The notes under the pieces were generated by a model. The model saw nothing but the letters and a program-made list of their open reading frames with translations. It searched no databases and had not been told where the DNA came from. Made by a program: the position numbers and the translations under genes. A stretch of 54,835 bases of DNA, the filler included, from Sluysia triapertura (Eukaryota), in assembly GCA_046118255.1 (NCBI GenBank). It is 4 parts of 4 records of this genome, joined end to end, with 100 filler letters (N's around TTAATTAATTAA, not from the genome) between each part and the next. Parts side by side here need not be neighbours in the genome. Positions count along the whole stretch, not along the records: positions 1 to 17,216 come from JBJNIA010190607.1; 3 more parts are not named here. One strand, given 5' to 3'. Shown in pieces: positions 707 to 38,522 of the stretch; position 1 is the stretch's first letter, and each line of letters begins with the position of its first letter.

Positions 707-1119
707 TTTCTTCAATACAAACAAACCTAATACAAACGCTGACAAAATATACGTTTATGTCCTTTAATAATAACCAATTTTACAATTACAATATGAAAAA
801 CCCTGTTTCCAAATTAATGAAGCATAACCGAAAATATAAATATGATTGTGTCATTTCACTGCTCAATCTATATGCATTTAACTAGAAAAACAACTTATGA
901 TTCTAAATTAGTTCTCTTAGTGACAAAACAAAGTTAAATATTATTGTAACATTTAATATGATTAAATACTTCAATTTGTTTTTCTTAAAATTAAATAATT
1001 TAAAATTTTTTCGCCTAATTATTTACAAATTTACTAAACACTTAAATGTAAATAAAATAGAATAAATAATATTAAATAATATTGCATAATAATGCCGATT
1101 GATTTATTAATACTCTAAG

Positions 1120-1536
1120 ATGATCTACTTAAATTTTTTATACAAATGGATTGTTTTATATTTTCTTTCAAGTGACTTGACGTCAGTGTTATTAAAAAAT
1201 GGTTTGTATTTTAATCAAAAATTTTTTCAAATGTGGATTAATTTAAGTATCAATTTAGATGTAATAGATTTGTATAGTCAATTTAAGGTATTTAAATATG
1301 TTGATCGTTACTATAAAAATTATTCACTAACACTCAAAATAGTAACTTTTCCAGGATATACACTCGAAACTGTTCATGTTACCATTAATAATAAGAAAAC
1401 GTTATTATTTAATTTATCAGTTTTTACTATTACAGATCTTTTTTACAATACAAAGTATGTAATGTACATAGAAACTAATGCTGGCACTGATTTACCCTTG
1501 TATGAGACCATTACTCATTTGGAAATGTGTAGTTAG
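1120..1536 (+). CDS. Putative secreted protein with a divergent fibronectin type III-like domain; possible in-frame 57-bp intron at 1202-1258
   Basis: 138-aa ORF with a hydrophobic N-terminus. FTITDLFYNTKYVMYI resembles the FN3 'xTIxxLxPxTxYxVxV' motif. It aligns nearly ungapped with the 11341-11620 ORF. GT..AG at 1202/1258 preserves frame. Confidence 0.45.
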   Translation: MIYLNFLYKWIVLYFLSSDLTSVLLKNGLYFNQKFFQMWINLSINLDVIDLYSQFKVFKYVDRYYKNYSLTLKIVTFPGYTLETVHVTINNKKTLLFNLSVFTITDLFYNTKYVMYIETNAGTDLPLYETITHLEMCS

Positions 1537-4500
1537 CGTATTTTATAAATAGAAATTTTATTTTCAAAGTTAAATCTTATATAATGTTAATATTGTCAAA
1601 TTAAACTAAATGAATAGTACTAATCAATTTAAGTAAACTATTTATTTAAACAAACTGCTTCCTTTGGTTATCAAAAAGCTACTAAATTCAATTTTTTTCA
1701 AATTTATTATTTTTATTATAACGTAAAAGTATTACACAATGTAACAGAATTGTAATAAATTTTAGTAAACCTTGTGTGTTTAATACTTAAATCAAAATAA
1801 ATGTTGATTTATTTTTTCTGTAATCTTTGTTAACTTTATTTATTAAGGGTATTTTTTACTTATACTATTAATGTCAAAAGTATTCGCAAACTTTATAAAA
1901 TCTAAGTATTAAATCAAATTATAACTTAAAACCCAAATGATGATGAATAACTTTTAAACCTCAATTTAATTTAGCATATTGTCACTAATTCTTTTAATTT
2001 GTTTCTGTTATGAGAAACGGAAGTCCGGAGTTTACAGTTTTACATTTTCAAATCTTTTAAAGCTTCAATTTACTTTACTCAATAACGAAAATTTATCTCA
2101 CTAAGATGTATTTACTAACAATTACAAAAAAGGCGTAAATAATATTTTATTAAACAGAAAACCAAACGTAATTGTTTACACTAAAATTTAAATAAATTTC
2201 TGTTAACTTTATTTAAGTATTGTACTTTCATCACAATTATTTTATTTTTATTCAATCAACAATGTAATTAAACTTCTCGATGAATAAATGTTTCAAATAT
2301 TTAGTCAAGGTTGCATAAATAAATAATGTAATTAAAATTCTTGATAAATTAATAAAATATTTTTTCTCATAAATGCTAATAACAATTGTTTTTACCAGAT
2401 GAATACCAGATACCACTTTTCAATACACATTTTGTCCAATGCCCTAATATAATTCTAATAGTACAAGCGAATTTTCTATTATTAACTTTTAATTTTAATT
2501 ATTAACTTTCACTGTAAACCCTATTTTATATTGTTTTCACTGCTACTATACTATGGTCAACTATTTTTTGAATTTCACTTTATAATAGCTTTCATTTAAT
2601 TAAGTTCTTCCTAAGGTTAGTTCCATTAAGCCAAAATTCATTCCGTAGTTACTAATATGCACATGATCTTATTCTACATATTTTTATGATTATATGGTTG
2701 TCAAGGTAGAACTGAGACGTTTTAAATTATCAATAATAAAATAAAACATGAATTTATTTTGAAATTAAATTTAATAAAATTGGGAAATAATAAAACAGAA
2801 ATTATAATAAATTTTCTAATAAAATTCTAAAATAGTAATAAAATGGTAGTTAAAACGCGAATAAGTAAAAATAGAGCAGCAATACAGACTGACAAAAGGG
2901 ATTGATACAAAAAGTAATACTGAAAATCGCATTTAAAAAAGGTTATGCAAAAAAGGTATGAATTGTGAATTTTTGTCAGACAACAATAGCAAAAACGTAT
3001 GTTTAACTTACAAAAACTTTAAAAATTAGCTACTAATTGCTAATTATTATAATTCTATCGCCAGGCAAGGATAAATGCGATTATTCTACATTTCGAATTT
3101 TCTTAATTCTTTTTCGACATCCAATATCCAGTTATCCCACCACATTGTGTTATAATTCCTATCTTATTTTGAGGATTTGAATCCAATTCATTTTTAATGT
3201 AAAGTTTGATTTTACAAGTTTTCCCCTTAATTAATTTAAGGGTCAAAATCCGATTAAAATCATTTATAAACTTGACGCTAGCATAAGGCTAGTAATAAAA
3301 TATTTTTTAAAATATCTAGACGAAATCATACTATAATGAAATAAATTGCATATATTTTTAGATATTTTTCTATCATAAAATTTGTTCATGGTATGCTTTA
3401 TTGTTATGAACAAACACATAACACATTATTATTTGTCGTATAGTTTGTAATACAACTAATTACTATTTCATTATTAGAGAAGAATCATTAAGGAAAAGTA
3501 AATTATTAATTGCTTTTATAGCAAAGAGCAGCAAGAAAAGTCACTGTTATTTTATTTGCTGTAAAGATTATAAGGGGTTACCATTTTTATATAAAAAGAT
3601 TAAATCGAACATTTGCAAAGGAATACATGCTTAAAATAATCCTAGTTCCAAAGAATATAAAGGAAGATATTGATAATTTACATTTAGTCAAAACAATCGT
3701 CTTCATAGTTGTAACAGACCTTACAGCACTTTAAAAGATAATTTATTAGGAAGAAAATCCTATAGAACGCCTTCCATTTGGATATAAACTCTTTACCAGA
3801 GGCTTACCTTAAACTAAGTTAACTTTATTGTGAAATCAGTTCTTTAAAGAAAACATTTGCATGACTAATTTCTTCGATATAATAGTTAATTTCATTCTAC
3901 ATTATAATTTTGGTTACAAATTATTTGCATCCCTTTCGTATTTATTCATCTGTGCGTGTTAGAGTTTATTTATATTATAATTTTCATTTATATTTTATTA
4001 ACATTAGATATTTCGGTTCCTACTGTGTTTGCGTTTATCTAGAGCTTTTCCTTTTAGTTTATTAAGTGTCGCAGGTTCCATTCCCCAAACTTATCATTAT
4101 TTTTTGTTTTTCTTTATGTATTTTTCTGTGGTGGTCAAACTCATTACATCTAACTTTATTACAAAATCAGCCCAAGACAAAATTCTAACTAATTTAAAAA
4201 ACAAAAATCCCAGTTAAACCACTTAATTCTTAAATAGTCCATTGTTTTTTAAATTTTATACCGTAAAACCTTCACAATTAATCAACTCATAACATCATTC
4301 AATCAAGCATTTTAAACCTTAACCACCTAACAGTTACCTTAAAATTAACAAATTCAGCTTACAAATCAACTGCAAACTCAAACAATCCATATAACGTATA
4401 GCAAGAGTACAAAATAACTCATTGAATCCACTTCAGATGCACCCATTTCTAGAATACCGAACAACAATATTTCACAGAAGAAAAACCACATCTTACAATA

Positions 4501-4566
4501 CCAAATTCATTTCACAGACTCATCCTACAGATCATTTAGAACTCAAATAAATTATAATTACAGAAT

Positions 4567-4725
4567 TGTTAGACTTCATAAAATGGACTGACTGGGGATC
4601 GAACTCGGGACCTCTATCTACGCAGTTCGATGCTCTACCACTGAGATATCAGCCCCGTCTAACAATTTTATTTTATTATAGTCAATTTTACCAAATGGCA
4701 CTTTAGGACTTTTTTTACCCCAACA
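4567..4725 (-). mobile_element. 159-bp TGTT..AACA element (solo-LTR/TRIM-like or MITE) carrying a tRNA-derived sequence; 4-bp TSD GAAT
   Basis: Starts TGTTAGAC and ends CCCAACA, with GAAT on both sides (4563-4566, 4726-4729). Absent from the paralogous site near 12600-12620. Second copy at 36386-36543. Confidence 0.85.
4584..4655 (-). tRNA. tRNA-Ala-derived pseudo-tRNA inside the mobile element
   Basis: Reverse complement GGGCTGATATCTCAGTGGTAGAGC...GGTCCCGAGTTCGATCCCCAGTCAGTCCA shows A and B boxes and an acceptor stem GGGCTGA/TCAGTCC with a G3:U70 pair. The anticodon arm is degenerate. Confidence 0.7.
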
Positions 4726-5360
4726 GAATATTAAAATATCACCACAACAAAATGCAGCAAATTTACTTCGTATTACGTGGCTAGAAATCACTAAATAATG
4801 CAGTAATAATAGTACTCACACGATTTATAACATTATCCTTTAAAAACTCTTTCCCCAGATATCCAGATCAGAAACGCAAATACCAAATGATATGTAAAGT
4901 TATGCAAAGATCCTGTAAGAAGAATTAAAGATTAAGCACAAGGAGTGTATTCAAATTTATCAAATTAAATCATATTTTTCTTAGTCAAGTAATATATTCT
5001 AGACTCCAGAAATAATTAAATTATTATGTTTTGTGTATGCAATATCGCGTGGAATTCGAAGATTCAAAAGAAAGGCAAAAAAAATTTTAAAGTTATAAAG
5101 AAATAGAGAAGAAATATAAATAATTTTAATACATAAAACACTAAGCAAATACTTAAACATTACAACACGCAAAGGTCGCCAAATAACTCTTCATACTCCT
5201 GCACCTTATACCTTATATCCTTGACCATACATATATGTTTTTGCATACAAGTTCGTCTTAGAAGTGACGATTTTTAAAGTTAAAGAATTAATTAATTAGA
5301 ATTTAAAGATTAAAATAGTTCAAAATCAAGATTTTCAGTTTTACTATAAATAATAATAGT

Positions 5361-9530: not shown

Positions 9531-11340
9531 AATTATTTTTTAAATTTCAAGGTTTTGATTTTTGTCTAATTGATCTTTACATTTTGTCTATATTGTAGCT
9601 CGTCTATATTTTTGTTATATTTACTCATTTTATACGATTTTTATTTAATAAACATTAGTAAAAGCTAGTTTACGAATTAAAGAATAGACCCTCTGTTAAA
9701 TACATAACCTACTTATTAAAGGCAAAGTAAATTTGAATTACTTTGCATAAATTTAACGAGACATTTAAAAGATTCAAAGATCTAAGGCTAACTTTCAGCT
9801 TTTTCTCTTTTAGTTATAGGTACGCCCTCAACACGTCGTAAATAGGATAATGTAACCGAATGCTTCTAAACTTTATTTTAAGAATAATAAAAACTACAGA
9901 AAATAATTGAAGAATCAAATATTAATATAGGAATATCATTTGTTTATGAAAGGATACCACGGCACTGGGATTTGGAAGATAATGTACGAAAATTCTTCAT
10001 AATTCGTGCTTATTCGTATCATTTCTTATTTCAATGCATTCAGATTTCAGGCATTTATTTAATGCACCATTATGACAATTAAAGCTAATACAAAAAATAA
10101 TATTATTCGAAACGATCCAAATTAATTCAAATAGAATTGACTAAAAGTAAAATGTTATTTACAATGAAAAAAAAGATTCACAATGAATTATCTACAAAAT
10201 ACAATAAAATTAACATCTAAATTTATAAAAACTCGAAAATCATTTAGTATTTGATGAGGTACGTTTTATTATCAAAACCAAGTAGAACGCCTTTATATGT
10301 GCTTTAAATAAACTTTTGACAATAAAACATCCAGTAAATCTGTTTTTAACTATAGGATTTTATTGAATTATTCAATTCAATCTCGAAAATTTAATGGTCA
10401 ATATGGAATAATTTTATATGGTTTGGTGTAACCTCACTTCGAGATGTCTTACCGAATTTTTTAAAAATATCATAAAGCAGACCTCGTATTAAGGTCCAGT
10501 TTCAGGCAATGCTTTTTGACGCGGAATACTATTCATTTTTGTACTCATTTTAAATATAAAAGGTAAATAATGTACAAGTATTAGTATGTAAAATCAATTA
10601 TTAAATAAACAGTGAAATTAAGTTAAACATGATATACTAAATTACATTAAAAACTATAAAAAAAGGATGTTTGTTAATTTGTTAAAATAAATAATGTTTA
10701 ACATTTAAAATAAATAATTTCATTTAGTTTTTAGAATAAATAATTAATTTACATAATTTGTTTGACAGTGATTGTTTTACTTATAAATACAGATGTACTA
10801 AAAAGTTTTTTCAGTTTTATTGTTTTGATCCATTTTTTAATATATAATTTTTAAATGATTTTTGTTCAAAATAATAAATATTACAAAAAATATTATAAAT
10901 ATTAAAAATATTAAACATTTTATTCTTGGAAATTTTAAAGAAACAACTAAATCTGGTATCATTATTTCGAACGTTTTCATGCAATTACTGACATTTAATT
11001 CGTTTATTTTCTATAAGAGCTTATCTGTGCGTCAATCAACTTATAAGATATGAAAGATGTTTAATTGTTTTTATAACGAATTAAGGATTGTACTAGTGCT
11101 GGCAAACGAAAAAATTCGTGTATCGATATATTTTTGCAAACTAGATTCTAAATAATCATTAGTTATTTTTCTAGTACTATAAAGCTAGTTGACATTGTAA
11201 ATTCTTTGTTTTATATATATTATAAATGATTGTCTAATTATTAAATATTCGTAAAACTAATAAATTCAAACAATTAGAAAATTATTATTATAATATGTTA
11301 ATACATTACATGCAAATTAAATTAATAATTATGTACACAG

Positions 11341-11949
11341 AGAAAATTGATGTTGGACGTATAAAACATTATGTAAAAAAAGTTATCGAATATGATAAAT
11401 ATTATACAATAATAATACGAATTATACCAACTTATTGGCTTCCAGAACATTTCATAATAGTAGAGGTTAATAATAAAATATATAAATTTTCAGAAAGAAT
11501 ATTTACATTAACTTATTTCGAATATTGCATAAGTTATGAATTATATGTTCGAATATGTTCATGTTCCGATGAATCAGTGCCTAGATTAATACATGCATTT
11601 ATCGGAAATCATAAGATTCAATTTCACAAATTTTTAAAAAAAATGTTTCCCAGATTGTACTACTAATTCTACTGCTTCTGTTACATTGCCATTTAGAGTT
11701 ATTCAGGTTTATTTTAATACCAATGCAATTTGTACTCTAAGTTATTATTTAAATTATCAAGTATCGAAATTTTTTAATGACGTTGAAGTAGAACATAATC
11801 CAGAAAAAGTGTTAAATCCTAGTCGTCGAGAAATAAACGTAGATTCAGTTGAACCGTGTTATAAAGTGTGTATTAAAGTTAGATTGTGTTATAATATTGA
11901 TTTTTGTACAGACTGGGATACTAAATGTTATTTGAATGCTTTAAGTTAG
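11341..11949 (+). CDS. Tandem FN3-like protein, paralog of 1120-1536; the frame changes near 11620-11645 (frameshift or short intron)
   Basis: Acceptor CAG ends at 11340. Domain 1 aligns with the 1120 ORF (ID, KxVxxYxKxY, VxVNNK, FxxxxFTLT, YxxxYxxY). Domain 2 ends INVDSVEPCYKVCIKVRLCYNIDFCTDW, resembling FN3 strands E-G. Confidence 0.45.
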
Positions 11950-12220: not shown

Positions 12221-13030
12221 TGTAGTTCAACTCATTACATCTGCTTTTATTACAAATCAATACGTAACAAACATTTAATTCTCAGTTTAAATCACATAAT
12301 CCTTAAACATGTCACAACCATATTACATTGTGTATCTTAAAACTTTCACAATGAAGCGTCTCAAAACGGCATTCAATCAAACGTTTTAAACTTTAAATAA
12401 CTTAACAGTAACATTACATTAAACAAAATCTGCACACTCAATCAATCTACATGAACACCATATTAAATCAAGAGTACACATAGCTTATTGAATCAACTTC
12501 ATATCCACACGTTTATAGAATACCGAGTAACAGCATTTAACAGAAGAAAAGTCACATTTTACAATACCTAATTAATTTAACAAGCTCATCTAAAACACAA
12601 ATAAATTGTATAAATTATATTAAAACATTACTACCATATAATTCAGTACATACATTTCATATCACACGTTTATAAATTACTAAATAATCTCTTATACATC
12701 ATGCAGCGTACACATTAATACTCATACAATTTACAACATTATTCATTTCAACATTTACACACCAGACAACCAAATAACATCTGAATTTATGCAAAGATCT
12801 TGTAAGAGAATTAAAGATCTGACACAAAAAGTATACTTAAAATTCCCAATTTAAGTCATATATTTCTTAATCATTTCATGCGTTTTATACTTCAGAATTA
12901 ATTATTTTATTATGTTTTATTTATGTGTGGAATTTGGAAGATTCAATAGAAAGACAAAAAACTTTCAAAAGTTATAAAAAATGAAGAGAAATATAAACAC
13001 TCAGCAAAATTTGTAATCATAATCGTATTC
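12221..13030 (+). repeat. Dispersed C/A-skewed repeat copy lacking the tRNA-element insertion
   Basis: Colinear with 4127-5200 and lacks the 159-bp insertion. Confidence 0.8.
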
Positions 13031-13879: not shown

Positions 13880-14730
13880 TGTTAGGTTGTCATCACAACC
13901 TCTAAAATAATTTTAAAATGATAAAATGACAGCCTAAAATTAATTTAAAATAATTAAAACGATCAAAAAATTAATTAAAAACATATAAAATATTTTAAAA
14001 TCAATTATTAATTAAAAAAACAATTATTTTCCAAAAAAGAAATGTTATGTGGATAGGCTTTTAACAAGTGCTCAAAAGTATAATTTTCTCAAATAATTTA
14101 TGCTTAAACTTTAAAGAATTAAATAATGCAAAAAAACCTTGATTTTATTCAAAATACATAAGTCTAAATAATAATCGTGGTAAGATATGGGAATATAAGT
14201 AATAATTATTTTTAAAAATTAATGCGCCAAGAGCATTTAATCTAATATTAAAATATTTTAAGTTGATACTAACCCTCAATATATCGGGGACTTAAAAAAT
14301 TTACAAATGATAGGAAATTTACGTAAATTTTATAATTTCAACTTCTAAAGTTGAAAATAACTCTATAAATATATAATTTATCAATAAATGGATTTGCTGT
14401 TGTCCAATTTTTGAATTAACTGCGAATTACGAACAGTTACTAAAAATTCACAATTCATCCAACAAAGACGCTGCAAATTGAATCAAACTAAACTGATTAT
14501 TCAAAATGGCGATTTTCATTAAACTGGTGCTAGTTAATGTATTAGTCATCACCCAATGAAAATCTATGGAATATTGTAGAACATTCTAGAAGCTTTTATT
14601 CTATTTTAGAAGTGAATTTTCTTTTTTGGAAAATAAGATTTTTATTTGACTTGTAAATGGTTTTAAATAATTTTAAAGTGTTATTATGACATATTAAATT
14701 ATTTTATAAGGTTTTGATGACAACCTAACA
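13880..14730. mobile_element. 851-bp non-autonomous TIR element (MITE) with TGT..ACA termini, Ginger-like ends
   Basis: Left end TGTTAGGTTGTCATCACAACC versus right-end reverse complement TGTTAGGTTGTCATCAAAACC; similarity extends ~50 bp. No ORF and no clear TSD. Confidence 0.8.
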
Positions 14731-15254: not shown

Positions 15255-15409
15255 ATCTAGAGTGTCCTGAATGTCTTATTAACTAATAAATAACTTTAAA
15301 ACCTTAATAAAACCTTTAAACATAAAATGAGATAAAGTCTAAAAATAGATTAATTAATTATAATTAAAGAAAAACTTTTGTGAATAACTTTTGAATGCGG
15401 AATGCTACA
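15255..15409 (+). repeat. 3' part of a repeat also present at 38350-38522 (ends GAATGCGGAATGCTACA)
   Basis: Direct colinear match ATCTAGAG..CCTGAATG..AAATAACTTTA..ACCTTAATAAAAC..AAGTCTAAAA..GAATGCGGAATGCTACATTAA. Confidence 0.8.
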
Positions 15410-17216
15410 TTAAGGTTTAATCGTGAATAATAATTAATATTTCTTAGTGTTGCGTTACCTCTGGTTTCATGGATATTATTATAAACATTATTTTTAATTT
15501 TGTGATTTAGTCATTTTTATTATTGTTAAAGTGGAAATTTATAATATTAATTTGTATTTGATTTTGTAATTATTAAATTATTGAGGTATTATTAATTTGA
15601 TTTCAAAACGTAAAATTTTGGTTGAATTACTGATAATTTATACTTGATATAGTGAGTACTTAAATTATTGAGATTCCATTTAAGTTAATTAAATCGAAAT
15701 TGATTTATCATAAGTAATAATTTTTTAAGATTCAAACTGATCGACAAAAGATTCATATAAAGTCTAATTATTAAAACGTTATTTTAATAATTGGTAGTGA
15801 TTTTCACGAGTTTACGAAAATATTCGCGATTTATTTTATATTTTGTAGACAATTATTATTCCCTGGACCCATATTTGATTGAGTTCCGATTATGTTATTA
15901 CCTAATATGACGTAAATTCTTAGTTTAATAAGAAAATTAATGCCAATAACCTTTAGTTTACGAATTTATAAAATATGCAAAATGTGCTGGAAACCGATTC
16001 TTTTGAACTCAACGCTGCCATTTTTAAGAACACTCTTATTGTTCATATTACATATGTATTACTTGTCTTTTGAATTAAATTTTATAACATTTGTCCATTT
16101 TGATAATTAATTTAAATGTTAGATATGTATAACATTCTTACACTAAAGGTTAAAATAGATTTCTAAATTTTATTTTTACAATTTATCAATCTAAATGTGA
16201 AAAGATTCAGTTTATTTTATGATCAGAATTTATTTATTAGAATTTTATCACTAAGATGTATAGTCTTGCATAAAAACATTTGCTTATTTTTTATGAGTTG
16301 TTTTATTTAGATTTGGTGTTTAGTTGTACGAAGCAATGTCAAAAATATTTTCCAAATTTGATAAATGTCAGTTTTTAATAAATGAATTCATTTATGTTTA
16401 TGTTTGTTTAAATTTATCACAACATAAGTATATAAAACAAATATTAATTTCAAATTTAATAAAAAAACTTTAGTAAAATAATAATTTAACTAATAAATTT
16501 AATTCATATGAAATCAAAATAAATAATTAAATAGGCGTGATATTCTTATTTTAATATTGAATTACAATTTTGGGTGTATCACCATTTTTAATTTATTTTC
16601 ATATTTTTGGAAATAATTTTATTGAGATATTTAGGGAGTAGCACCTCTAAAATTTAATATAAAAACAAAAATCGACGCAAATTAACAGATAAGTTACAAG
16701 TTACAGTTTTCATAATATTAATTGTAGATTGTCAAATATTTATTCGGATTTATCCAATTTAAGGAGTTATTGATTATAATTACGTATTAATTCGATTTGA
16801 AGAACCTATTGACAATACATTCAGATCTATTCAATTTGGGAAGTTTGTGAATTATATATTTAGAGCTTTTCCATTTTGGTAGCTGTATCTCCTACTACTT
16901 TTTTTCAGAAAAAGATAGATTGTAAGTTAGTATTTATTAAGTTATTCTCTTATATCATATAAGGGTTAGTGTACTTAAAATCACAACATTTTTTCAGTCT
17001 TTAATAATTTTAGACTTAAAATTTTGTTTAAAATAAATCCAATGAAGGATCAAACCTTGTTTTCAACATTGTATTATTGTGTATTGTAAACATTTGTACT
17101 TTATATTTATGACATCTTTAGTAATAGACTTTAACTTTATTATTAGTTGTTTGAAAAGTTAAACGTCGGCTTAAGGCCGTAACAATAACAATTAAATTTT
17201 GATATGAACAAAAATT

Positions 17217-19266: not shown

Positions 19267-19730
19267 TATGGTGGACAACCTTTTCATTTAAGATTCAAAT
19301 CATTATTTTACATGAAATATTACATTCCAAACATTTTAAATTCACAATCGCATAACATTAAAATTATGCTTACATTGAAAACATTTTTAATTCACAACTT
19401 CACAACACTATAATCACAATTTACATCTCAAATTATCAAGCATGCATTCCAAGTTCATAATTCTTCAATAGTGAATCATTAACATCAGCGGAAAACATTA
19501 AGTTCACATTTTAAAATCATTTTTTAAACAACCTAATCAAAATAGAATTTTATTGAAGTTAATTTTATTTTAAAATATAAGAATTTATAAGATTTTAAAG
19601 AATTATTTGTTTTTTATTATTTTATATATCATTACTACTATTTTATTATTAATATTATTTATTATCATTATTATCTTCATTTTTATTATCATAATTATTA
19701 CTGACATTAATTTGTTTATTTTATTTTCAA
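19267..19730 (+). repeat. C/A-skewed repeat copy (head TATGGTGGACAACC, (ATT)n-like tail)
   Basis: Head motif; body homologous to the reverse complement of 22900-23060. Confidence 0.7.
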
Positions 19731-19734
19731 TTCA

Positions 19735-22559
19735 TAGTCTGTCACCAGTCTGCAGTTTAATTAAAATCAATCCACACTACCTTGTTAACTGTCGACTGAT
19801 GACAGTTGCTTAGTGTGTTAATCTAGTTTATTATCACAACAATTGCAAGCAAAAGTCAATAACTTTTCGCGACATTCATTCTTTTGGTTTGATTGGAGGT
19901 TCAATCAGTGCTATTTTTCTGCACTGTCATTTGTAGTTTTTATTGGACACCCAATCACGATTAATTTTACAATGTCAGTAGTTATAAAAATAATAGAAAT
20001 ACACAAAGGTAACACAAATAAATGTCTAAAAGTTAAAATAGGAAATATAGTGTTGTTTCGATAAAATTGCTGTATAAAATGACAATCGTTAATTTGGATA
20101 TTATTAAGAATGATAAAAAGCTGTTTTGTAAAGTTTTAAATCTTGATTATAATGAAAGTGATTACGATTCATCTCTTAATGAAAATGTAAATGATATGAT
20201 TTTAGTAAGTCATTCTGCTAGTAAAATGAAAATCAGTTGCTGTATTGCATTGACCTGAAATATAAGTTTTCTACTGTCTTAGATGTTAAAGTTAGACGTA
20301 GTAATATACCGTTCAGTAGATAAAAATCGTACTATTATTGCTAATGAATTATAAAGTATGCCTCCTAATTCTAAATATCGAAAGTGTTACATATATCGAC
20401 TTAATCAAAGTAATTACTCAACGATTACATCAGACCGATTTCATAGAAATAGTAGTGAAACAATTTTGAATAGTTCACATATATCAGCAAGTCTTGCATG
20501 TAGTATAAACAAAAACTTAAATGATCTAACTCTCACTGATGATAAAGGACCATCTAAACATGCTAAACAAAGTATTAAATCCTTAACTAGAAAATTTTTG
20601 AATCGTAAAAATCAATTTCGCACAGTTACTATTCGTAATATTAAATTGTACAATGATAATGCTGATTATATATACAGACAGGCTATTTTGAGTCATTTCG
20701 CAAAAGCAACTATATCATCTACAACGTTAAAGGAGAGATGTATCAAGTTGATTTTATTCTTGTTGAATATTGTCAAATGCACGTTAAAAATTATTTTCAT
20801 TTTACGGCTATTGCTAATGTTATCATACCCAATCAAAAACGTATGACACAATGCCCATCTCAATTAGATGCATTTGGAATATGTATCAAATTGGGTACAT
20901 CCTGCCGCTATTACTGTAAGGGGCTATAAGATTTGATTACGTTAGTAATATCAAAAGTTCGTAACTTTAAGTTATAGTTATAAATAATTAAATTGTGAAC
21001 TTGTTTAAAAAGTTTTATAATTTCAAATTTACTATTAACAAATACGTTTGCATTAAAATTTATAAAATATAAATACATAAATGTTGGGATATATTATAAC
21101 AACAAAACATTTACGACTTAAAATATAATTATAATTATTGTCCAAAACGTTTATCCAGGGACACTTTGCCAATTTCATCGGTTGCAAAAAACAAGTATCA
21201 AATATTAATTGATTATTAAAATTTAATATTACTTTATTTTTATTGTTGTTTAAACACTTGATTGATTGAATCTTGCCTTCATGTTCCTTGAAGTGCTCTT
21301 TACTTATTTAACGACTAATTTTATCGAACTCTAGCATGGATAGTATTAGATTTTGAATGCGTTGGACATGATCTTGTAATACTGATATTAATTTGATCGA
21401 CTCAATGAAAGTAATTACATAAAATTCCAAATTTAATGCATTTCCCTGACATGTAAAGCTTTGAACTCACTATCATTTTTGCAACATTGATCATATCAAT
21501 ATGATGTTCGACAATATGATGGGGAATATTTGTTGAAGGATGCATAGTACTAAGCTTTCCAAACACGTTTACATTTTCATCAGCAAAATGAAGCAATAAT
21601 TCTATGAAACATAGATTCGCTTTTAATATTTTGAAACAACTTGTATAATTAATTATAGAAACAGTTTTATTGATGACGCTAGACGACTTTCTCGTAAAAA
21701 TTTTCAATTATGATTAGTATAGATCTTTTTTGATTACCATCATTACTTTGTTCATCTATTGAAATACTATCGATAAAAGTAAGTTCTTGATCTAATGCGG
21801 ATTGGCCAGTATCTTGTTTGGACAATATATCCAACTTGTTTGTAAACATTGTTGCAAATTTGCGTATTAATCTTTTGTGGAATTAAACTAAATTCATCAA
21901 TTTTTGACATCAAGATTAATGTTGTCGGTACTAGTAGTCATGCATCATTACACTTTAAAATATACATCATGTGAAGTCTTTTACAATACATCATTCCCGA
22001 TAATATAGCTTGTGGTCGAAGTCTAAGTCGTTTATTAAATACTAAATTAACATCATTGGAAATAGTTATCAGATTTTGATATTCTTTTGTAACACATACT
22101 TCATCCATAACACTTTGATGATTTTTGAACATATAATCTTTATCCAACAAACAGTCTAATTAATGAGAATTTCTCTAAAATATTCAGCTGTAAATTAATT
22201 ACAATAAATGTTTTATCTTTATAATAACTAAATCGAAACTATTGAATCTTTATATTTTTTGTAAAGATATAAATTTTTTTAACTTGCATATTAAAATAAT
22301 GAAAATTCTTTTTTTGATTTTTTGTTTTTTTGTCCAAATAATTTTTGTTTAATTTGAAATTTGCTTTTGATTGAACGTCCAGTTAAAATGAAAATACGAA
22401 TGTAGAATAATATTATTGATTGGACATCCAATCAAATATATTAACGAAATACTATCACCAGTGTTAATAGTGATGCCGCACACAGCAACTGTCATCAGTC
22501 GACACTTTATACGATGTTAATTTAATTTAATTGAATTACTGTTGACTGGTGACAGACTA
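19735..22559. mobile_element. 2.8-kb degenerate DNA transposon with TAG..CTA termini and bipartite ~80-bp TIRs (Academ-like ends; family unconfirmed)
   Basis: TAGTCTGTCACCAGTC (19735-19750) is the exact reverse complement of 22544-22559. TGTCGACTGATGACAGTTGCT (19790-19810) is the exact reverse complement of 22484-22504. Convergent broken ORFs lie inside (+20067-20929, -21402-22150). Confidence 0.8.
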
Positions 22560-22599
22560 TACTACAAAAATTGCTGATCTTACTTACAAAATGAGAATA

Positions 22600-22654
22600 A
22601 AGATTTTATAATAATAATTAAACGATTAAAAATAATAAGTATTATTAAAATAAA

Positions 22655-22702
<48 letters not shown>

Positions 22703-23371
22703 TTTACAAAGAAAATAAAAAATAAATTGTGCATAAATTCTTAATATTTTACACGATCTTTCTTTTATTTAAAAAAAACAAAATATTTCTTTACATAAAA
22801 ATAAATGAATTTAATTAAGATGCAATTTGTTGATTTAAGATGCCAAAAATAATTAAAACATGTAAATACTTAAGGGTGAGTGAATTGAGAACTTGAAAGA
22901 GTTAATTTTATTATATATGTTAGCTAATTTAAGATTTAAGTTGTGATTCTGATGTTGTGAAATAAAGAATAAAAAATGTTTTATATGAATTTTTAAATGT
23001 AAGTAAAGTTTGGATGTTATAAGATTGTGACTTGAAAATGTATTGAAATGACAATGGTTTTAATGGATCTGAAGGGAATTAAATAAGGCAAAGGTTTTGA
23101 TGCATTATAAAAGGTAATTGTATAAATGTTAAAAAGTGTAATTATGATTGTAATGTTATGAAATGTGCGATATGCTGAATTAAATTAGAAATGTTTTAAG
23201 TTAGTTTTTTTAGTATATGTTTGATGATTTTCGATGTTGAATAATATTTTAACGTTATGGAATTTTATATGTAGAATGTTTGTAAGTATTAACAATTATG
23301 AAATATTCAGAAGAGTGATTTTGTTGTGTGTTGATGAAATAAAATTTATAAGTATTAGGTTGACCACAATA
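22600..23371 (-). repeat. C/A-skewed repeat copy, inverted relative to 19267-19730
   Basis: Ends GGTTGACCACAATA. Its reverse complement aligns with 19320-19445. (AAT)n at about 22660-22700. Confidence 0.7.
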
Positions 23372-26554: not shown

Positions 26555-26975
26555 TTAACGATCATTCAAACTTAATTTAGTATCATTCGTATTGAATTGA
26601 TTTATTTTTAGTTGATGACCCCTAGTATTCATTTTAATATTCAATTCATCATAATTTATATCTCTATAATATTTATATCTCTATAATTTACATTCGCTTT
26701 AAGATTCTGATCATCACAACTTAGGTTTGCTTTGACTTTTAATTCATCATAATTGAAGTTTAATCTTATAATTAACTCATCGTAATTTAAATCATCACAG
26801 ATTGCATTCGCTTTAACTTTTAAATCTTCATAATCAAAGTAGCTAATAAATCATCATAATTAACGCTTACTTTAACATTTATATCTTCATAATTTATGTG
26901 TGCTTTAAGATTCAGATCATAGTAATTTAAGTTTGCTTTAATGTTTAAATTGTCGTAGATTACATTGGTTATCAT
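26555..26975 (-). repeat. Coding-type 33-bp minisatellite (11-aa unit ~NYDDLNLKANL), with one frameshift
   Basis: Translation IYDNLNIKANL NYYDLNLKAHI NYEDINVKVSV NYDDL / DYEDLKVKANA ICDDL NYDELIIRLNF NYDELKVKANL SCDDQNLKANV NYRDI NYRDI NYDELNIKMNT. Confidence 0.7.
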
Positions 26976-27175
26976 TACTAGCGCTACTCTTTGTTTTCTT
27001 TTCAAAAGTTTTTATTTTTTTGAATAATATCGTAGCCATGTTTTTATTTATTTTTTCCTAATATTTTAAATTTTTCTGAGGTAACCATTTCACATTTGAA
27101 TTTAACATAAAGAAATGCATACAGCCTAGATTCCGAAATTAATATTAAATTATTACTATTATTCTTTGAATATTA

Positions 27176-28672: not shown

Positions 28673-29819
28673 CATTTATCTAAATTTAATAAATTTTTAT
28701 AATTTAAATTATTTTTTAAAAAATATAAATTTTATATACACTCTTACATAATTAAATCATAAATAAATAAATTAAATTTATAAGATTAAAAGAAATAAAT
28801 TAAATTATGAAATTTAAATGTAAAAAAATAAAATTTAAATTAAATTAATTAATAAAAAATCCAATTTGTTTTAATTAATTATTTTGTTAAATGGTCGAAA
28901 TCAACATGGATGACCACAAATTATGATATAAATAGATGAGTGAACATGTGGAACAAAAAATTTTGCAGTTTAGGTAAAACGAAAATAAATTTTGCAGAAG
29001 ACTTTTGAAAAAATTTACTCCTGAAGATTTTTAACATCAATGAAAAAGTAATTTTATTTTATTAAGTTCGATTCACCAAATTAGGAATAAAAAAAATATA
29101 CCTAAAATCATTTTTATTTTATGTAACATCTTAGAAAGAGTTGCGAAAGTTCATTATAAATTTTCATTAAAATCAACCGAGGTTGAATTGTATCATATAA
29201 AATTTTATTATTATTATAATTATCGTTTCTTTTATTGTAAGTAAATTTTTTTAGTTTTAGTAATAAACCTTATTGTGTTAGGTTGTATTAATACTTATAA
29301 ACTAATTTTTTAAAAACAACATCTTAAGAAGGATTGCGCAATATACTAAAATAACATTAAAATTTTTAAAAGCAACACCTTAATACGGGTTGCGTAATTA
29401 TAAAATATATAATTGATTAAGAAGTTGATCGTTATAAGTTTCATTATTAAGTTTATTTGATAAGTTGATATTGATTAAATTTGAATTTAAGTTTTGTTAT
29501 TGAATTTTTTGACTAAAGTTTATTTGATAAGTTTAAGCTAATATTTAAAGTTTAAGTTATATTTGTTGATTAAGTTTTAAGTTTATTAAGTTAAAAGTTA
29601 AGTTTTGATAAATTATAAGTTACGTTTTCAATTTTTTTAAAGCTACACTAACTGGGTTATACTGCTAATTGTTAAATAAGTTTTGATTACGACTATTTGA
29701 TTTACGATTACATTTTTCAATCTTATTGTTAAATAATTACGTTAAGAATAGATAATAATAATAACCATAAGAAGAAATATACGAGAACTTTAAGAAGTAG
29801 CTCACTTGAAAGATTTACA

Positions 29820-30810
29820 ATGACGGTACCATTTAAAGAATTTAAAGACTGGATGTCTAAATTGACTCAGAATATTAAACCAATAGTAATACTTCCAGAA
29901 ATGCGCAAGTTTAATGGCGCCGAAGAACTTTGTGATTTTTTATTTGAATTTCATAGCCTAGCTGAAGTTAATGGCTGGACACCGATAGATAAGGTTAAGA
30001 TGTATTATTTAACTGGTATTATTTACAATATTATTTAACTGGTGTTGCAATACAAACATATAAAGAGATAAAAGATGAACATTAAGAAGATTGGAACACA
30101 AATGTCGACGTTTTTACCGAAGAAATAGCATTAGAAGACATATGATTATACTATCTAAGAATGCTTAGTATAAGGGTACAGAAACCGCACGAAACAGTTT
30201 ATGAATTTGCATGTGTGCTTAGAATTCCAGATAACAGAGAGAAATAGTATTAATGGATAAGTTTACAAATTACGAATTTATGTAAATTTAATCGAAGAAA
30301 TGCCATTCAAAGGCATAGTTACGAAATTAAGAAGTATTGAATATACTAAAAATGAAACCAAAAAAATATAAGTTACATAGATGATAACAAGAATACAAGA
30401 AATCATTACAAGCATAAGCATGAGAATTCTTTTGAAGGCAATAATTTTAATAGTAATAATAGTGATTTTAATAGCAATACAGATAACAGTAACAATAACT
30501 TTGGAGGTAACAATAGAAGAAATTCAAATAATTTTGAAATAATCCAAGAAGAAACGACACTAATGTTGATAGGAATAATAGAGGATTTGAGAAGGACAAA
30601 TAAATAATATAGGTTCAAGAGAGTATGAACAACTTCCACTGCCAAGGTGGCCTAGTAAACAGTCGAATAATAATAATTTTTCAGTAAGAAATAAAAGTCC
30701 TGCACGATCAAACTATAATAACAGTTATGAAACAAGAACAAATATAGGTGACATAGTATGTCACAATTGCGGTAGACATGGGCACTATGCTCGAAATTGT
30801 AATAAGTTAA
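29820..30810 (+). pseudogene. gag: Ty3/Gypsy-type gag (capsid plus CCHC zinc knuckle), disrupted
   Basis: KFNGAEELCDFLFEFHSLAEVNGW..DK..YLTGVA...Y, then RVQKPHETVYEFA (major-homology-like), an N/R-rich linker and CHNCGRHGHYARNC at 30759-30800. A duplicated TATTATTTAACTGGT breaks the frame near 30003-30043. Confidence 0.85.
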
Positions 30811-32279
30811 GCAAGACTTAAATAAATGTCGACCTCCAGACAAACCTCACCAATGAGGGTAAGATTCCATAAGAGTAGGAATGAAGGACAAATAAATTGT
30901 AATTACGATTAGGAGTATGAAGATTAAGAATATGAGAGACATCCAAGAACACTGACAGATGAAGAAGAGATGCTAAGAGAATTTCGTAGAGAAAAAATAG
31001 TTAATAACGATATTAAGGAAGAAAAGAAACAACCTAGGAGTAGGCATGATGATGAAGATGATATGTTTATTAATTGTTTACATAATTCCTTTATGCAATT
31101 AGTAAATAAAAGTTAAGAGAGGATAAGAAGAGAAAAGACGTAGAAGAGCAACAAAATTCAAAAATAATTAAAAGTGCTCAACAAATTGAAGAAGAAAGAA
31201 AGTATGCCGAAGCAATTGTAAGTAGATGGATGAAGCATAGTGGCATAACAGAAGAAGACGAGGATAAAATCAACATTAAGTGATATTAACTGTATAGTAA
31301 ACTTAGAAGAAGAAGAAACAATTAGTTCATATGATCAAGAAGAAAAGATTGATTATATACTCTCAGATACTGAACCGATGATTATTTTAGGTAATGAAGA
31401 AGATATTCCAACCGAGGGAAATAGTACACAAAAAACAAATTTTTTAGAGGTTTATCCAAAGAGGTAGAAATGTTTCTTTCAGATTTAGTAGGCGGTAAAA
31501 ACATGGATAAAAATTTAAATATACTTTTAAAAATGAACTTAGATATGTTTAATAGACAAAATATTCGGTCATGCTTAACTTCACTTAAGTGAGGAAGATA
31601 GCCTACATAGTGTTAAGGCACGAAGATTATTAAGAAAAATAGGTTTGGCTGATAGAACAGAAACACCTGACACATTGATAAACATTAATATACTTATATA
31701 TGGAATTGCCTGTTACTCTAAGAGTAGAAGATGTAATAAATATGCTTATATTAAACGACCTATCAATATTGAGTGCGAAACTATATATCTTTAAGAGACA
31801 TCTAAAACCCAGAGAATATTTAATAGATTAGGTTATCAATTGGGTGATCATGATGAAATGATAAAGGCAGAAATAGTACATGAGAATTCAAATGACGTTA
31901 AAAATGAATCTCCACGTACACTACTAAGACAATTAATGGAGGATGATTATGTACATGTAGTTGATATCGATGCCGAAGCAGAAAAAGATGACCCACTTGA
32001 TTATATAGTGAACCTTAATAAAAACTCACATCTAGAAACCGTCGATAAAGAAACGAATACAATAAAAAGAGACGAGAATGATATAATAACTGCACATTTC
32101 GTTAAAAATACTATCGATATCCTAAAATACTAATAATATCAGGATTTATGTATCAAGATAAAGACGAATACCCATTGGAAGAAATAAATAAAAATACTGA
32201 CCAGATACAAAGAAAAAGGCTAGATGAAGTCGAACACCGACAATACTAATGGCTAGTAGAGAAGAAGATAGTTTAATTT

Positions 32280-33290
32280 TTATTTCAAAAGGAACAATAA
32301 TCCGCTCTGGAAAAGAAATAACAGAAACTAACTCAGAGAAACTATCTCTCAGAGAAAATAATTCAACAAGCTAAGAAAGGCCTATTTTAACAATAAAATC
32401 GATTTCTATTACCATTTAGGTTTGATTTCGCTAGAAAAAATTTATCAAATTATGATTACTCGGGATTGTCAATTTAACAAAGAAATTCTACGCACAAAAT
32501 AGCTATTACAAATCCAGACTTAGTCGCACCACTACCACCATTAGAAGAAGGAGTTTTACACGCATAAATGTAAAAAGGTAGAAGTACAATTAAGGTTAAC
32601 CACCGAATGCACAAATGAATTGCTTATACTATACGGTAAAACAGAAACATACCTCGAACCAGTAACCAAAGTAATATTTCCAAATAATAAAGTCAAACCA
32701 AAATTAATGCACTGCTCTAACGTCATGGCACCAGAATATAGAATCGATGATAATTTATGGATATCCTTGCTACACAGAAGCCAGGTAAAAACTCCAGAAA
32801 TAATAGGACTAACTGAATTAAAGGGAAAACTAAAATTTTTAGCTACAAAAATATACCAAATTCTGGCATTTATACGAATGACGATATGTAAGCAGCCTGG
32901 CGGAAGATACTATTCCCAATGAAAAGGTCAAAAATATTAACTGAAATTGTAGATAAAGCAACAGTTGAAAAGTATGGACAAGTAAATTTCGAATTACTAT
33001 TTGGACCCGATCATTTTAAAAGATCTGCACAAGATACACTGAAACAGATATGGGGAAAATTTTTAATATTAGAACAAGCATTTTCTGGATTAATAGGAAT
33101 ATTTATAATCATTAAGGTAATGTCTTTGATAATTTTTCACGCTTTTTCAGTAGTCTGAATTTATAAAATCTCGTGATTTATGTAGAAATTAATAATTGGA
33201 TGTTTTCCATTCCTGGCAAAATACTTCTTGCACCACCACGCAAATGCTCAAATAAATGCATTAAGAAGACAATACACAGAAGAATGACAG
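32280..33290 (+). pseudogene. env: Chuvirus (Jingchuvirales)-like envelope glycoprotein, C-terminal portion with transmembrane helix, disrupted
   Basis: KAYFNNKIDF..LEKIYQIMITRDCQFNKEILRT / IAITNPD..G.VLH / KCKKVEVQLRLTTECTNEL..YLEPVTKVI..CSNVMAPEYRIDDNLW / SGIYTNDDM...ILFP..IWGKF..FSGLIGIFIIIK. This follows the recalled chuviral G motif order (AYVNSK, C..E, PD, HIIKC.PVEV..R.T.EC..EL, C....P.Y.I...W, SGIY, MFP, W..F..F..G.IGI). Confidence 0.75.
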
Positions 33291-36149: not shown

Positions 36150-36321
36150 AAATAATATGAAAGCAGATTCTGCCAAATCGTTAAAGTATTACGATATGAA
36201 TAATGATGGTAAAGTAGACTGGAGTGAATATGTACAGATGGCCTATGAAATGGATTTGAATACACTACATATGATTCAAGAACGAAAGAACAAGTCAGCC
36301 AATGATGTACATTTTCTTCGA
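36150..36321 (+). CDS. Isolated intact exon of a CREC-family EF-hand protein (calumenin/reticulocalbin-like)
   Basis: Flanked by an acceptor ending CAG at 36149 and a GTTAGT donor at 36322. Encodes YDMNNDGKVDWSEY, a canonical EF-hand loop with the CREC-type 'V.W.EY'. Other exons were not found. Confidence 0.65.
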
Positions 36322-36385
36322 GTTAGTTCAATTCTTTGATAAATTTATATTATAAATATATACTTATTTTTTATTTTATTATTAT

Positions 36386-36543
36386 TGTTAGACTTCGTAA
36401 TATGGACTGACCGGGGATCGAACCCGGGACCATCGTCTGGGCAATCGATGCTCTACCACTGAGCTATCAGCCCCGTCTAACGATTTCATTTTCAATATAT
36501 TCAATTATACTACTTGGCACTTTTTAGGCCTTTTACCCCAACA
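36386..36543 (-). mobile_element. 158-bp TGTT..AACA tRNA-carrying element, second copy; 4-bp TSD TTAT
   Basis: End-to-end homologous to 4567-4725, with TTAT at 36382-36385 and 36544-36547. Confidence 0.85.
36403..36473 (-). tRNA. tRNA-Ala-derived pseudo-tRNA inside the mobile element
   Basis: GGGCTGATAGCTCAGTGGTAGAGCATCGATTGCCCAGACGATGGTCCCGGGTTCGATCCCCGGTCAGTCCA has intact acceptor, D and T stems and a G3:U70 pair, but a defective anticodon arm. Confidence 0.75.
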
Positions 36544-38349
36544 TTATTATATATTTACTACATTAATAAATTTATTATAAATACCTTGTGTTTTCTTACA
36601 CATTTATTTTCAGATTATCACAATAATTATTATTGAAGTTGCAAGTATATGTCAAAATAAAATGGATAGCATTGGATTAGATTATTGGTTGAATGTTTTA
36701 TATTGGCTAGATTGAGTATTACATTAAATTTGGATTTGGTGTTAATTAATTGGAAAATGATTTTTAAACTTTTGATTTTAATCAATTTTATTTTATTTTA
36801 AGTAGTCAAAATTGATTTTAATTGTCAGTTAATCAGAAAAATTTACTGTGTGTCACTATAACATATATTATAGAAGCATACTTATACAAGAATGTGATAT
36901 GATATTATTCCTTACATACATCCATAGTTGTGCCTGTCATTGCAGTTTAAATACTTCAACACATATCAAATCTTGTAACAAGACATCTCCACCTCTTTAA
37001 ACAGCATTCTTTATGATCACACAAACCTATTTATACTTGGGTTGATTTCAAAGTTGTAGAAGATTCTTTTAATTGATAATAATTGGCAAGAAAATGATTT
37101 TCTAAATATATTAATTTATATACTAAATTTTTTAATTGAAATTATCCAATTATAAATGAAACACTATTTGATTTTTAATTTTTTTACCACTGTTGCACCT
37201 TTATAAATAGATCTTAAAATTAATTCATTTTATTCAATATCAACTTTAAATTCCAACTGTCTTGGTTATCAAGTTTTTAGAAATTAATTGATTTGTAAAT
37301 TTTGAATGTGACTGTGTATGATTGTATGGGATGCTGATTAGATATGAAATATGTTCTACCGTTTACTATTTACATATTTCATTTACCATTTGCAAAAATA
37401 ACCAATTTTCTTAAATACTGTTTTAGTTTCCATTGATAAAATTTTAAATGATTAAGATCATTTAAAACGTGACTTACAAAATGTCGGAATGATTTCTTTG
37501 TACCTATTTATATCCGCACAATAAATGACTAAACTCTTTGTACATATATGTGAGGCGCGTTTCATCATTATCTTATATAATTTTCATATCCAAGTCGATA
37601 AAACAATACCAATTTTACCAAAATCGTCGAAATTGTTTACAGTACCAAAATCGTTATCCTATAGTAAAAAAATTTAATCAATCCATTTATGAAAGATGAA
37701 ACACAAATGTACAAACATCTAGAATTTTTGACACATATGAAATTCACTTTCTACAAAAGGATATGATTTACAAATTCAAATAACGTGCAAATATGCTGTG
37801 AACTCAATTTGCTGCCATGTTATTAGAAATAAGTACAGAAATAATAAACAAATTCAACATACCAAATGTAATTCCAGAACATCCTCATATAATGTGCTCC
37901 ATTCATTACTGCTGAGATTAACTGTTAAATAAGAAAAAAGTAAGGAAGATTGGAAATTAAAAGTGTAGGAATAATTGATAAAGTGATGGGCAAACCATGA
38001 TTAAATATTGTTGAGTACGCTTGATGAAGATGAATACGTTTATAATAGTGTTAACAACTGAAGAATACTTTGGAGTTCCAAAGATCTATTGGGTGTTGAG
38101 ACGTTGCGTAAGTTTGAGATGGGTTTTGAAAACCTTTAGAAGCATTAAGGTACCTTGAGATCATTGGAGATTTTATTGACCTTTAAGTAAACGTCAAACC
38201 TTGATAAACATTTAAGACTTTTGATTAATCTTATAAAGTAATTGAAATCATTAAAATATTTGAGAAATAAAATCATAGTTGATAATATTAAAGATAAGTT
38301 TAATAATGTAGTAATTAGTATAAAGAAGTAGAAAAAGGAATCAGAAACC

Positions 38350-38522
38350 ATCTAGAGCCTCCTGAATGCCTTATAAACTACTAAATAACTTTAGAACCTT
38401 AATAAAACTTTTAAACGTAGAATAAAATTAAGTCTAAAAGTAGAATAATTAATAACATCTTCATTAAGTTAATTAAGAAAAAGTACGATTTTGTTAGTAA
38501 CGTTCGAATGCGGAATGCTACA
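38350..38522 (+). repeat. Repeat shared with 15255-15409; possibly the 3' end of an LTR-like unit starting near 37867
   Basis: Direct match to 15255-15409. Ends in ..GCTACA. Confidence 0.7.

What the first reader, a model, noticed from the sequence alone, without database searches (positions are those of the whole stretch)
4567..4725. A tRNA-like gene packaged inside a 159-bp TG..CA element with integrase-type 4-bp TSDs
Seen: two copies (4567-4725 with TSD GAAT; 36386-36543 with TSD TTAT) share identical boundaries. The tRNA-like part is internal, with ~70 bp of element upstream and ~17 bp downstream, and there is no A-rich tail. An empty site exists in the paralogous host repeat near 12600-12620. 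Known: SINEs start at the tRNA head and have variable-length TSDs, while TG..CA ends with fixed 4-bp TSDs indicate a retroviral-type integrase (LTR elements or Ginger transposons). Pol III genes inside LTRs are known for Cassandra TRIMs (5S rRNA) and, as I recall, for tRNA-bearing Ajax elements. Inference: a solo LTR of a Pol III-driven TRIM, or a Ginger-mobilised MITE carrying a tRNA. A/B boxes and the acceptor stem are retained while the anticodon arm differs between copies, suggesting use as a promoter or structure rather than in decoding.
Basis: partly seen in the sequence, partly recalled or inferred. Interest (0 to 1): 0.8.

Follow-up and report, generated by a model that had tools for sequence, protein, structure and literature searches.

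The report
Helenus-type solo LTR, probable flatworm
Two short mobile-DNA remnants each carry a tRNA look-alike; they fit the leftover end-repeats of a miniature retrotransposon type described in 2024, and the only likely news is that the host appears to be a parasitic flatworm.

Summary
Two 158-159 bp copies (4567-4725, 36386-36543; 83% identical) share TGTT...AACA ends and 4-bp flanking duplications. A tRNA-like module lies on the minus strand, 70 bp from one end and 17 bp from the other, and the paralogous host repeat lacks the element. This is the layout of a solo LTR of Helenus, the tRNA-bearing miniature LTR retrotransposons (Kojima 2024, PMC10886601). Animal Helenus make 4-bp TSDs, have 104-323 bp LTRs and leave solo LTRs. 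A Ginger MITE is unlikely (TIR 4 bp against 40-270 bp; wrong target). So is a SINE. The tRNA arms that hold the promoter boxes differ at 3 of 50 columns, the anticodon/variable region at 8 of 22 (P=0.002), which fits use as a promoter. Not shown: a two-LTR copy with PBS and PPT, because no genome was available. A nearby pseudogene groups with neodermatan flatworms (support 92/93), a phylum absent from the published Helenus list. This scan noted Helenus-type LTRs before on other DNA (fungi, a diatom-like alga). Verdict: new member of a known kind, modest interest.

The parts
4563..4566 (.). left target-site duplication of copy 1 (GAAT)
4567..4725 (-). copy 1: 159-bp LTR-like element, ends TGTTGG...CTAACA on the minus (sense) strand; the more decayed copy
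4656..4725 (-). copy 1: 70 bp upstream of the tRNA-like module (inferred U3); no stable fold (z 0.19)
   Evidence: U3 label is inference
4657..4664 (-). internal 8-bp sequence just 5' of the tRNA-like module that is the perfect reverse complement of the element's 3' end (4567-4574); 7 of 8 in copy 2
4584..4655 (-). copy 1: tRNA-like module (Rfam tRNA 27.8 bits); acceptor stem intact, one D-stem and two T-stem pairs broken, anticodon stem unpaired
4638..4648 (-). A box of copy 1 (one substitution against copy 2)
   Evidence: box consensus as
4595..4605 (-). B box of copy 1 (first G changed to A against copy 2)
   Evidence: box consensus as
4567..4583 (-). copy 1: 17-bp trailer (inferred U5); begins with T4 in copy 1, TATT in copy 2
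4726..4729 (.). right target-site duplication of copy 1 (GAAT)
4195..5120 (+). host repeat interrupted by copy 1
   Evidence: 73-76% identical to 12265-12997
12265..12997 (+). paralogous host repeat with the empty site near 12615-12618
36382..36385 (.). left target-site duplication of copy 2 (TTAT), inside a (TAT)n run
36386..36543 (-). copy 2: 158-bp LTR-like element with intact A and B boxes
36403..36473 (-). copy 2: tRNA-like module (Rfam tRNA 53.5 bits); acceptor, D and T stems intact, anticodon arm non-canonical (ARAGORN anticodon undetermined)
36544..36547 (.). right target-site duplication of copy 2 (TTAT)

Best explanation
Both copies are solo LTRs of a Helenus-type TRIM (TRIMp3), a non-coding LTR retrotransposon whose LTR carries a tRNA-derived internal Pol III promoter. 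Shown here: fixed ends, 4-bp flanking duplications, insertion into a previously empty site, a tRNA-like module near the 3' end of the unit, and conservation focused on the arms that hold the promoter boxes. Inferred from the family model: (1) Pol III starts at the tRNA-like module of the 5' LTR of a full element. It reads through the 17-bp U5, a PBS, a short internal region, a PPT and the 70-bp U3 into the module of the 3' LTR, so the module acts as both promoter and R region. (2) An autonomous Gypsy-type element supplies reverse transcriptase and integrase in trans, which gives TG..CA ends and 4-bp TSDs. (3) Recombination between the two LTRs removed the middle and left one LTR between the TSDs. 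The module is probably not a decoding tRNA. My own speculation, untested: the 8-bp pairing between the leader and the LTR end extends the acceptor stem and may shield the transcript from tRNA-processing nucleases. The host is probably a neodermatan flatworm.
For: Layout and size match published Helenus LTRs: TG..CA ends, tRNA-like part near the 3' end, often followed by a short T-rich trailer; animal LTRs are 104-323 bp with 4-bp TSDs; solo LTRs are common and some families are known only as LTRs (sequences compared by eye). Both ends follow the TGTNR pattern of Gypsy LTRs. Empty paralogous site. Differences between copies: acceptor, D and T arms 3 of 50 columns; anticodon plus variable region 8 of 22 (Fisher P=0.002); U3 body 11 of 52 (P=0.04). 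Uneven divergence of this kind suggests selection on source elements and matches the box A/B conservation reported for Helenus. A terminus repeated in reverse on the far side of the tRNA also occurs in bivalve Helenus LTRs such as Helenus-2_PeMa and Helenus-1_ArIr (by eye). Flatworms have LTR machinery that makes 4-bp TSDs and solo LTRs from TRIMs: 52 of 57 ta-TRIM cases in E. multilocularis. Host: the hillarin/KY-like pseudogene at 40128-40714 has its highest identity over the full domain with Protopolystoma (48%), Cichlidogyrus (45%) and Paragonimus (42%) and groups with them in a tree of 24 rows at 92/93 support.
Against: No two-LTR copy, PBS or PPT was seen. The flanks of these copies have no PPT-like run, and copy 1 has no PBS-like start. 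That is expected for solo LTRs but leaves the defining feature untested. There are only two copies, so TSD length rests on n=2, one of them in a microsatellite. None of 4 element-specific short motifs of this element occurs in the published Helenus sequences, so it is not a close relative of a listed family. No autonomous Gypsy pol was found in the window. Copy 1 has T4 right after the module, which would stop Pol III in a 5' LTR (many published Helenus LTRs also have such a run). Host assignment is not firm: tree support is below the starred threshold, and a myosin pseudogene's hits among only 54 candidates were cnidarian wherever named, at 58-68%.
Confidence: 0.8

Rival explanations
1. The 159-bp unit is the whole mobile element, with no internal region. 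It is an 'LTR-only' Pol III element that is copied from tandem or circular intermediates and inserted by a borrowed integrase.
For: Only single units are seen. Some published Helenus families have no known internal part ('n.d.'). Tandem arrays are reported for LTR-11_DR.
Against: Without a PBS and PPT no known route makes double-stranded ends. Two single copies in 55 kb are expected anyway, because LTRs outnumber internal parts about 2- to 12-fold in most published families.
Confidence: 0.08
2. A non-autonomous DNA transposon (MITE) mobilised by a Ginger-type transposase that happens to carry a tRNA.
For: TGTNR at both ends and 4-bp TSDs are also Ginger features. The internal 98-bp unit 4567-4664 has perfect 8-bp inverted ends.
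Against: The true ends pair over only 4 bp (5 of 6), against TIRs of 40-270 bp (Ginger1) or about 50-180 bp (Ginger2). The targets GAAT and TTAT are not CCGG/CCGT, and their 6-bp contexts do not fit RTATAY. The 98-bp unit has no TSD of its own in either copy. A cut-and-paste element would not need conserved promoter boxes. One literature search for such an element found 0 papers.
Confidence: 0.07
3. An ordinary tRNA-derived SINE or processed tRNA pseudogene.
For: tRNA-derived repeats are abundant in schistosomes (2,342 of 2,368 tRNA-Gln-like sequences classed as SINEs).
Against: 70 bp of shared sequence lies upstream of the tRNA, only 17 bp follow it, there is no tail, and both ends are identical and symmetric in two unrelated sites.
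Confidence: 0.03
4. Two real tRNA genes or a small segmental duplication, with chance 4-bp repeats.
For: Copy 2 passes Rfam's tRNA threshold. Its TSD lies in a microsatellite.
Against: The anticodon arm is non-canonical in both copies. The empty paralogous site and the sharp shared ends show insertion.
Confidence: 0.02

Closest known systems
Helenus (TRIMp3), animal families, closest in look to bivalve ones such as Helenus-4_CVi and Helenus-2_CGi; Kojima 2024, PMC10886601 (whole main text read; supplement parts 1, 5, 6, 7, 11 of 11 and one motif search)
   Same: LTR-sized unit with TG..CA ends, 4-bp TSD, internal tRNA-like module near the 3' end, conserved A/B boxes, non-functional anticodon arm, solo copies.
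   Different: No listed family shares its element-specific motifs. Platyhelminthes is not among the six listed animal phyla. The full-length form was not seen here.
Cassandra and Ajax TRIMs (PMC10886601)
   Same: Small-RNA-derived Pol III promoter inside an LTR.
   Different: They carry 5S rRNA sequence, not tRNA; Ajax makes 5-bp TSDs.
ta-TRIM of taeniid cestodes; Koziol 2015, PMC4558846 (passages read)
   Same: Flatworm TRIM, many solo LTRs, 4-bp TSDs in E. multilocularis.
   Different: The passages seen mention tRNA only as primer and describe spliced transcripts from the LTR; no tRNA-like module in the LTR is described there.
Ginger1 / Ginger2 DNA transposons; Bao 2010, PMC2836005 (passages read)
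   Same: TGTNR termini, 4-bp TSD.
   Different: Long TIRs and specific targets, neither present here.
Sm-alpha-like tRNA-Gln SINEs of Schistosoma; PMC2770079 (passages read)
   Same: tRNA-derived interspersed repeat in a flatworm.
   Different: Classed as SINEs; here the tRNA is internal and the ends are fixed with a short TSD.

Membership tests
Helenus (TRIMp3) | tRNA-derived sequence inside the LTR | tested here: met
   Rfam tRNA 53.5 and 27.8 bits, internal to the unit
Helenus (TRIMp3) | box A (TRGCY..YGG) and box B (GGTTC) conserved | tested here: met
   intact in copy 2; one substitution each in copy 1 (motifs)
Helenus (TRIMp3) | TG..CA LTR ends and LTR length in range (animals 104-323 bp) | tested here: met
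   TGTT..AACA, 158-159 bp
Helenus (TRIMp3) | 4-bp TSD in animal hosts | tested here: met
   2 of 2 copies; one lies in a (TAT)n run and shifted 2-3 bp readings are possible
Helenus (TRIMp3) | full element under about 1.3 kb with two LTRs, PBS and PPT, no coding region | not testable with these tools
   no genome held; laying contigs gave no result; collection scans found no further copy
Helenus (TRIMp3) | PBS shared with an autonomous Gypsy element | not testable with these tools
   no internal part available; no RT or integrase domain among the 89 window segments scanned
Helenus (TRIMp3) | Pol III transcription from the module | not testable with these tools
   not shown for any Helenus either
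Ajax / Cassandra | 5S rRNA-derived sequence in the LTR | tested here: not met
   Rfam gives tRNA and no 5S match
Ginger-derived MITE | TIRs of about 40-270 bp | tested here: not met
   4 bp perfect, 5 of 6
Ginger-derived MITE | target CCGG/CCGT (Ginger1) or RTATAY (Ginger2) | tested here: not met
   GAAT and TTAT; n=2
tRNA-derived SINE | element starts at the tRNA head and ends in a tail | tested here: not met
   70 bp shared upstream, 17-bp trailer, no tail

The most novel reading that the evidence does not exclude
The 159-bp unit moves as it is, with no internal region, PBS or PPT. It would be a minimal Pol III element whose leader-to-end stem around the tRNA serves in copying and whose ends are handled by a borrowed integrase or Ginger-type transposase: a hybrid between SINE, TRIM and MITE, in a flatworm.
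Probability: 0.12. Interest if true: 0.7.

Novelty: new member of a known kind. Interest (0 to 1): 0.3.

Why it matters
If the host is a flatworm, this adds a seventh animal phylum to Helenus and supports repeated, independent capture of tRNA promoters by TRIM LTRs. In practice, such copies pass tRNA finders (copy 2 does) and inflate tRNA gene counts in parasite genomes. The reverse repeat of an LTR end across the tRNA, seen here and by eye in some bivalve families, gives a small testable handle on an open point: how such transcripts avoid being processed or terminated as tRNAs.

Tried and rejected
No whole genome is held, and laying the holder runs' contigs gave no result. Genome-wide copy number, TSD spectrum and full-length copies therefore remain untested. 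Pattern scans found 0 matches in metagenome contigs, viral contigs and prokaryote genomes, and BLASTN found none in plasmids. These blanks say little for an animal repeat. The idea that the lack of T4 in the sense U3 shows selection for Pol III read-through was rejected: 39% of 10,771 70-bp windows lack T4, and so do 70% of shuffles. The idea that the 98-bp inner unit with 8-bp inverted ends is the transposed unit was rejected because it has no TSD of its own. Whole-element folding is only weakly better than shuffles (z -1.9), and U3 alone is not better. Troyka was rejected: CG..CG ends, 3-bp TSD (PMC12440569, passages). Host identification: word-index searches with the hillarin and EF-hand pieces found nothing; the Atlas gave no answer; the myosin piece gave only 14 hits among 54 candidates, cnidarian where named. 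Literature: 'Helenus'+'retrotransposon' gave 6 papers (5 listed) and none places it in flatworms in what I saw (listing; passages of PMC12859917 and PMC13570524). 'TRIMp3' gave 1 relevant paper of 6. Searches gave 0 papers; searches gave nothing on this element by their listings. Repbase, Dfam and subscription journals were not searchable, so an existing entry cannot be excluded. Supplement parts 2-4 and 8-10 of the Helenus paper were not read apart from the motif search.

Full report
Observation. They are 82.7% identical end to end (E 2e-40), and neither BLASTN nor nhmmer finds a third copy in the window. Similarity ends sharply at TGTT and AACA. A tRNA-like module lies on the minus strand, at 36403-36473 (Rfam tRNA 53.5 bits; ARAGORN anticodon undetermined) and at 4584-4655 (27.8 bits). 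It has 70 bp upstream, 17 bp downstream and no tail. Copy 1 interrupts a host repeat (4195-5120) whose paralog (12265-12997, 73-76% identical) runs straight through the site, so the unit is an insertion.

Strength of the TSD evidence. A chance 4-bp repeat at this spacing occurs at 1.1% of positions. Each copy alone is ambiguous. Copy 2 lies in a (TAT)n run and could be read as 4 or 7 bp, and copy 1 allows a 7-bp reading that takes the last ACA of the element. With common ends, the 7-bp readings drop out. Readings of 2 or 3 bp with a shifted left end remain possible because both TSDs end in AT, but only the 4-bp reading gives symmetric TGTT/AACA ends. The evidence is good but rests on n=2.

Anatomy. 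On the sense (minus) strand the order is TGTTG..., a 70-bp AT-rich leader, the tRNA-like module, a 17-bp trailer and ...AACA. Differences between the copies (last ten bases left out) are 3 of 50 columns in the acceptor, D and T arms, 8 of 22 in the anticodon plus variable region (Fisher P=0.002) and 11 of 52 in the leader body (P=0.04). All three core differences break pairs or boxes in copy 1, so copy 1 is decaying and copy 2 is close to a working source. Uneven divergence suggests selection on the promoter-bearing arms, not on decoding. The 8 bases just before the module are the reverse complement of the element's 3' end (perfect in copy 1, 7 of 8 in copy 2) and fold as a stem that encloses the module. 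I tested whether the lack of T4 runs in the leader indicates Pol III read-through; it is unremarkable.

What it is. Kojima 2024 (PMC10886601; whole main text; supplement parts 1, 5, 6, 7, 11 of 11) describes Helenus: TRIMs with a tRNA-derived sequence in the LTR, conserved A and B boxes and mostly non-functional cloverleafs. In animals they have 4-bp TSDs and 104-323 bp LTRs, and solo LTRs are frequent. Ajax is the 5S-bearing group. The published LTR sequences show, by eye, the same layout as here, and some bivalve families (Helenus-2_PeMa, Helenus-1_ArIr) also carry the reverse complement of one LTR end on the far side of the tRNA. None of 4 element-specific motifs was found in the published set; the two more generic ones and an end motif gave 6 scattered hits. 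So this is a separate family, not a listed one.

Mechanism. Shown: insertion, fixed ends, 4-bp duplication, promoter-like conservation. Inferred from the family: Pol III transcription from the module in a 5' LTR through PBS, internal region and PPT into the 3' LTR; reverse transcription and integration by a Gypsy-type partner; LTR-LTR recombination leaving solo LTRs. Pol III activity is not shown for any Helenus. The T4 after the module in copy 1 (TATT in copy 2) is a difficulty shared with many published LTRs. That the enclosing stem protects the RNA from tRNA-processing enzymes is my speculation.

Rivals. Ginger elements share TGTNR ends and 4-bp TSDs but have TIRs of 40-270 bp and CCGG/CCGT or RTATAY targets (PMC2836005, passages). 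Here the ends pair over 4 bp and the targets differ. A SINE would start at the tRNA and end in a tail. An LTR-only element that never has an internal part cannot be excluded without the genome.

Host. The window is eukaryotic, about 24% GC. An intronless, broken hillarin/KY-like copy at 40128-40714 has its highest identities over the full domain with neodermatan flatworms (Protopolystoma 48%, Cichlidogyrus 45%, Paragonimus 42%). By HMMER score two other proteins ranked higher. In a tree of 24 rows drawn from 15 of the stored homologues it groups with the flatworms at 92/93, below the starred threshold. A myosin fragment pointed to cnidarians among only 54 candidates, which speaks against certainty. 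I put a flatworm host at about 75%. Platyhelminthes is not in the published Helenus list. A flatworm TRIM with 4-bp TSDs and solo LTRs is known (PMC4558846, passages), as are tRNA-derived SINEs in schistosomes (PMC2770079, passages).

Limits. No genome was held, laying contigs gave no result, and five collection searches found no further copy. The feature that defines a TRIM, two LTRs around a PBS and PPT, is untested. The element works like a Helenus LTR with good confidence; formal membership awaits that test. Earlier notes of this scan list seven Helenus-type findings on other DNA; none is this sequence, and I had the Helenus paper before seeing them.

Verdict. Real feature, new member of a known kind, probably a new host phylum. 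Interest 0.3.

Noticed in passing
window 29700-33300 (+): Decayed retroelement-like stretch, broken into many short frames: zinc knuckle at 30591-30818 and Monjiviricetes-type fusion glycoprotein pieces at 32545-33155. No RT or integrase hit in the segments scanned and no flanking direct repeats in the self-BLAST. LTR elements with a chuvirus-derived envelope are known (Anakin, mentioned), but one in a probable flatworm could merit a look.
   Followed up: partly
window 40128-40714 (-): Intronless hillarin/KY transglutaminase-like pseudogene with a frameshift and a stop; used for host placement.
   Followed up: yes
window 47685-47939 (+): Isolated myosin-head fragment, probably a processed pseudogene.
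   Followed up: partly
window 36151-36321 (+): EF-hand-like exon with plausible AG/GT ends about 64 bp before copy 2, so copy 2 may sit antisense in an intron; no next exon was established.
   Followed up: partly
window 53886-54059 (+): Tc1/Tc3-type transposase HTH fragment.
   Followed up: no
window 1111-1536 and 11238-11949 (+): Open frames of 103-142 aa with no Pfam hit, upstream of the two copies of the host repeat; by eye possibly diverged paralogous exons.
   Followed up: no
window 26560-27010: Degenerate 33-bp repeat that keeps an open frame on the minus strand.
   Followed up: no
window 19323-19817 vs 22479-23050; 13880-13970 vs 14642-14730; 15255-15413 vs 38350-38526: Other diverged repeats (71-78%): two inverted pairs that may be old DNA transposon ends, and one dispersed pair.
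   Followed up: no
published Helenus LTRs and window 4567-4664: A reverse-complement copy of one LTR end encloses the tRNA module here and, by eye, in several bivalve Helenus; I did not see it mentioned in the paper's main text.
   Followed up: partly
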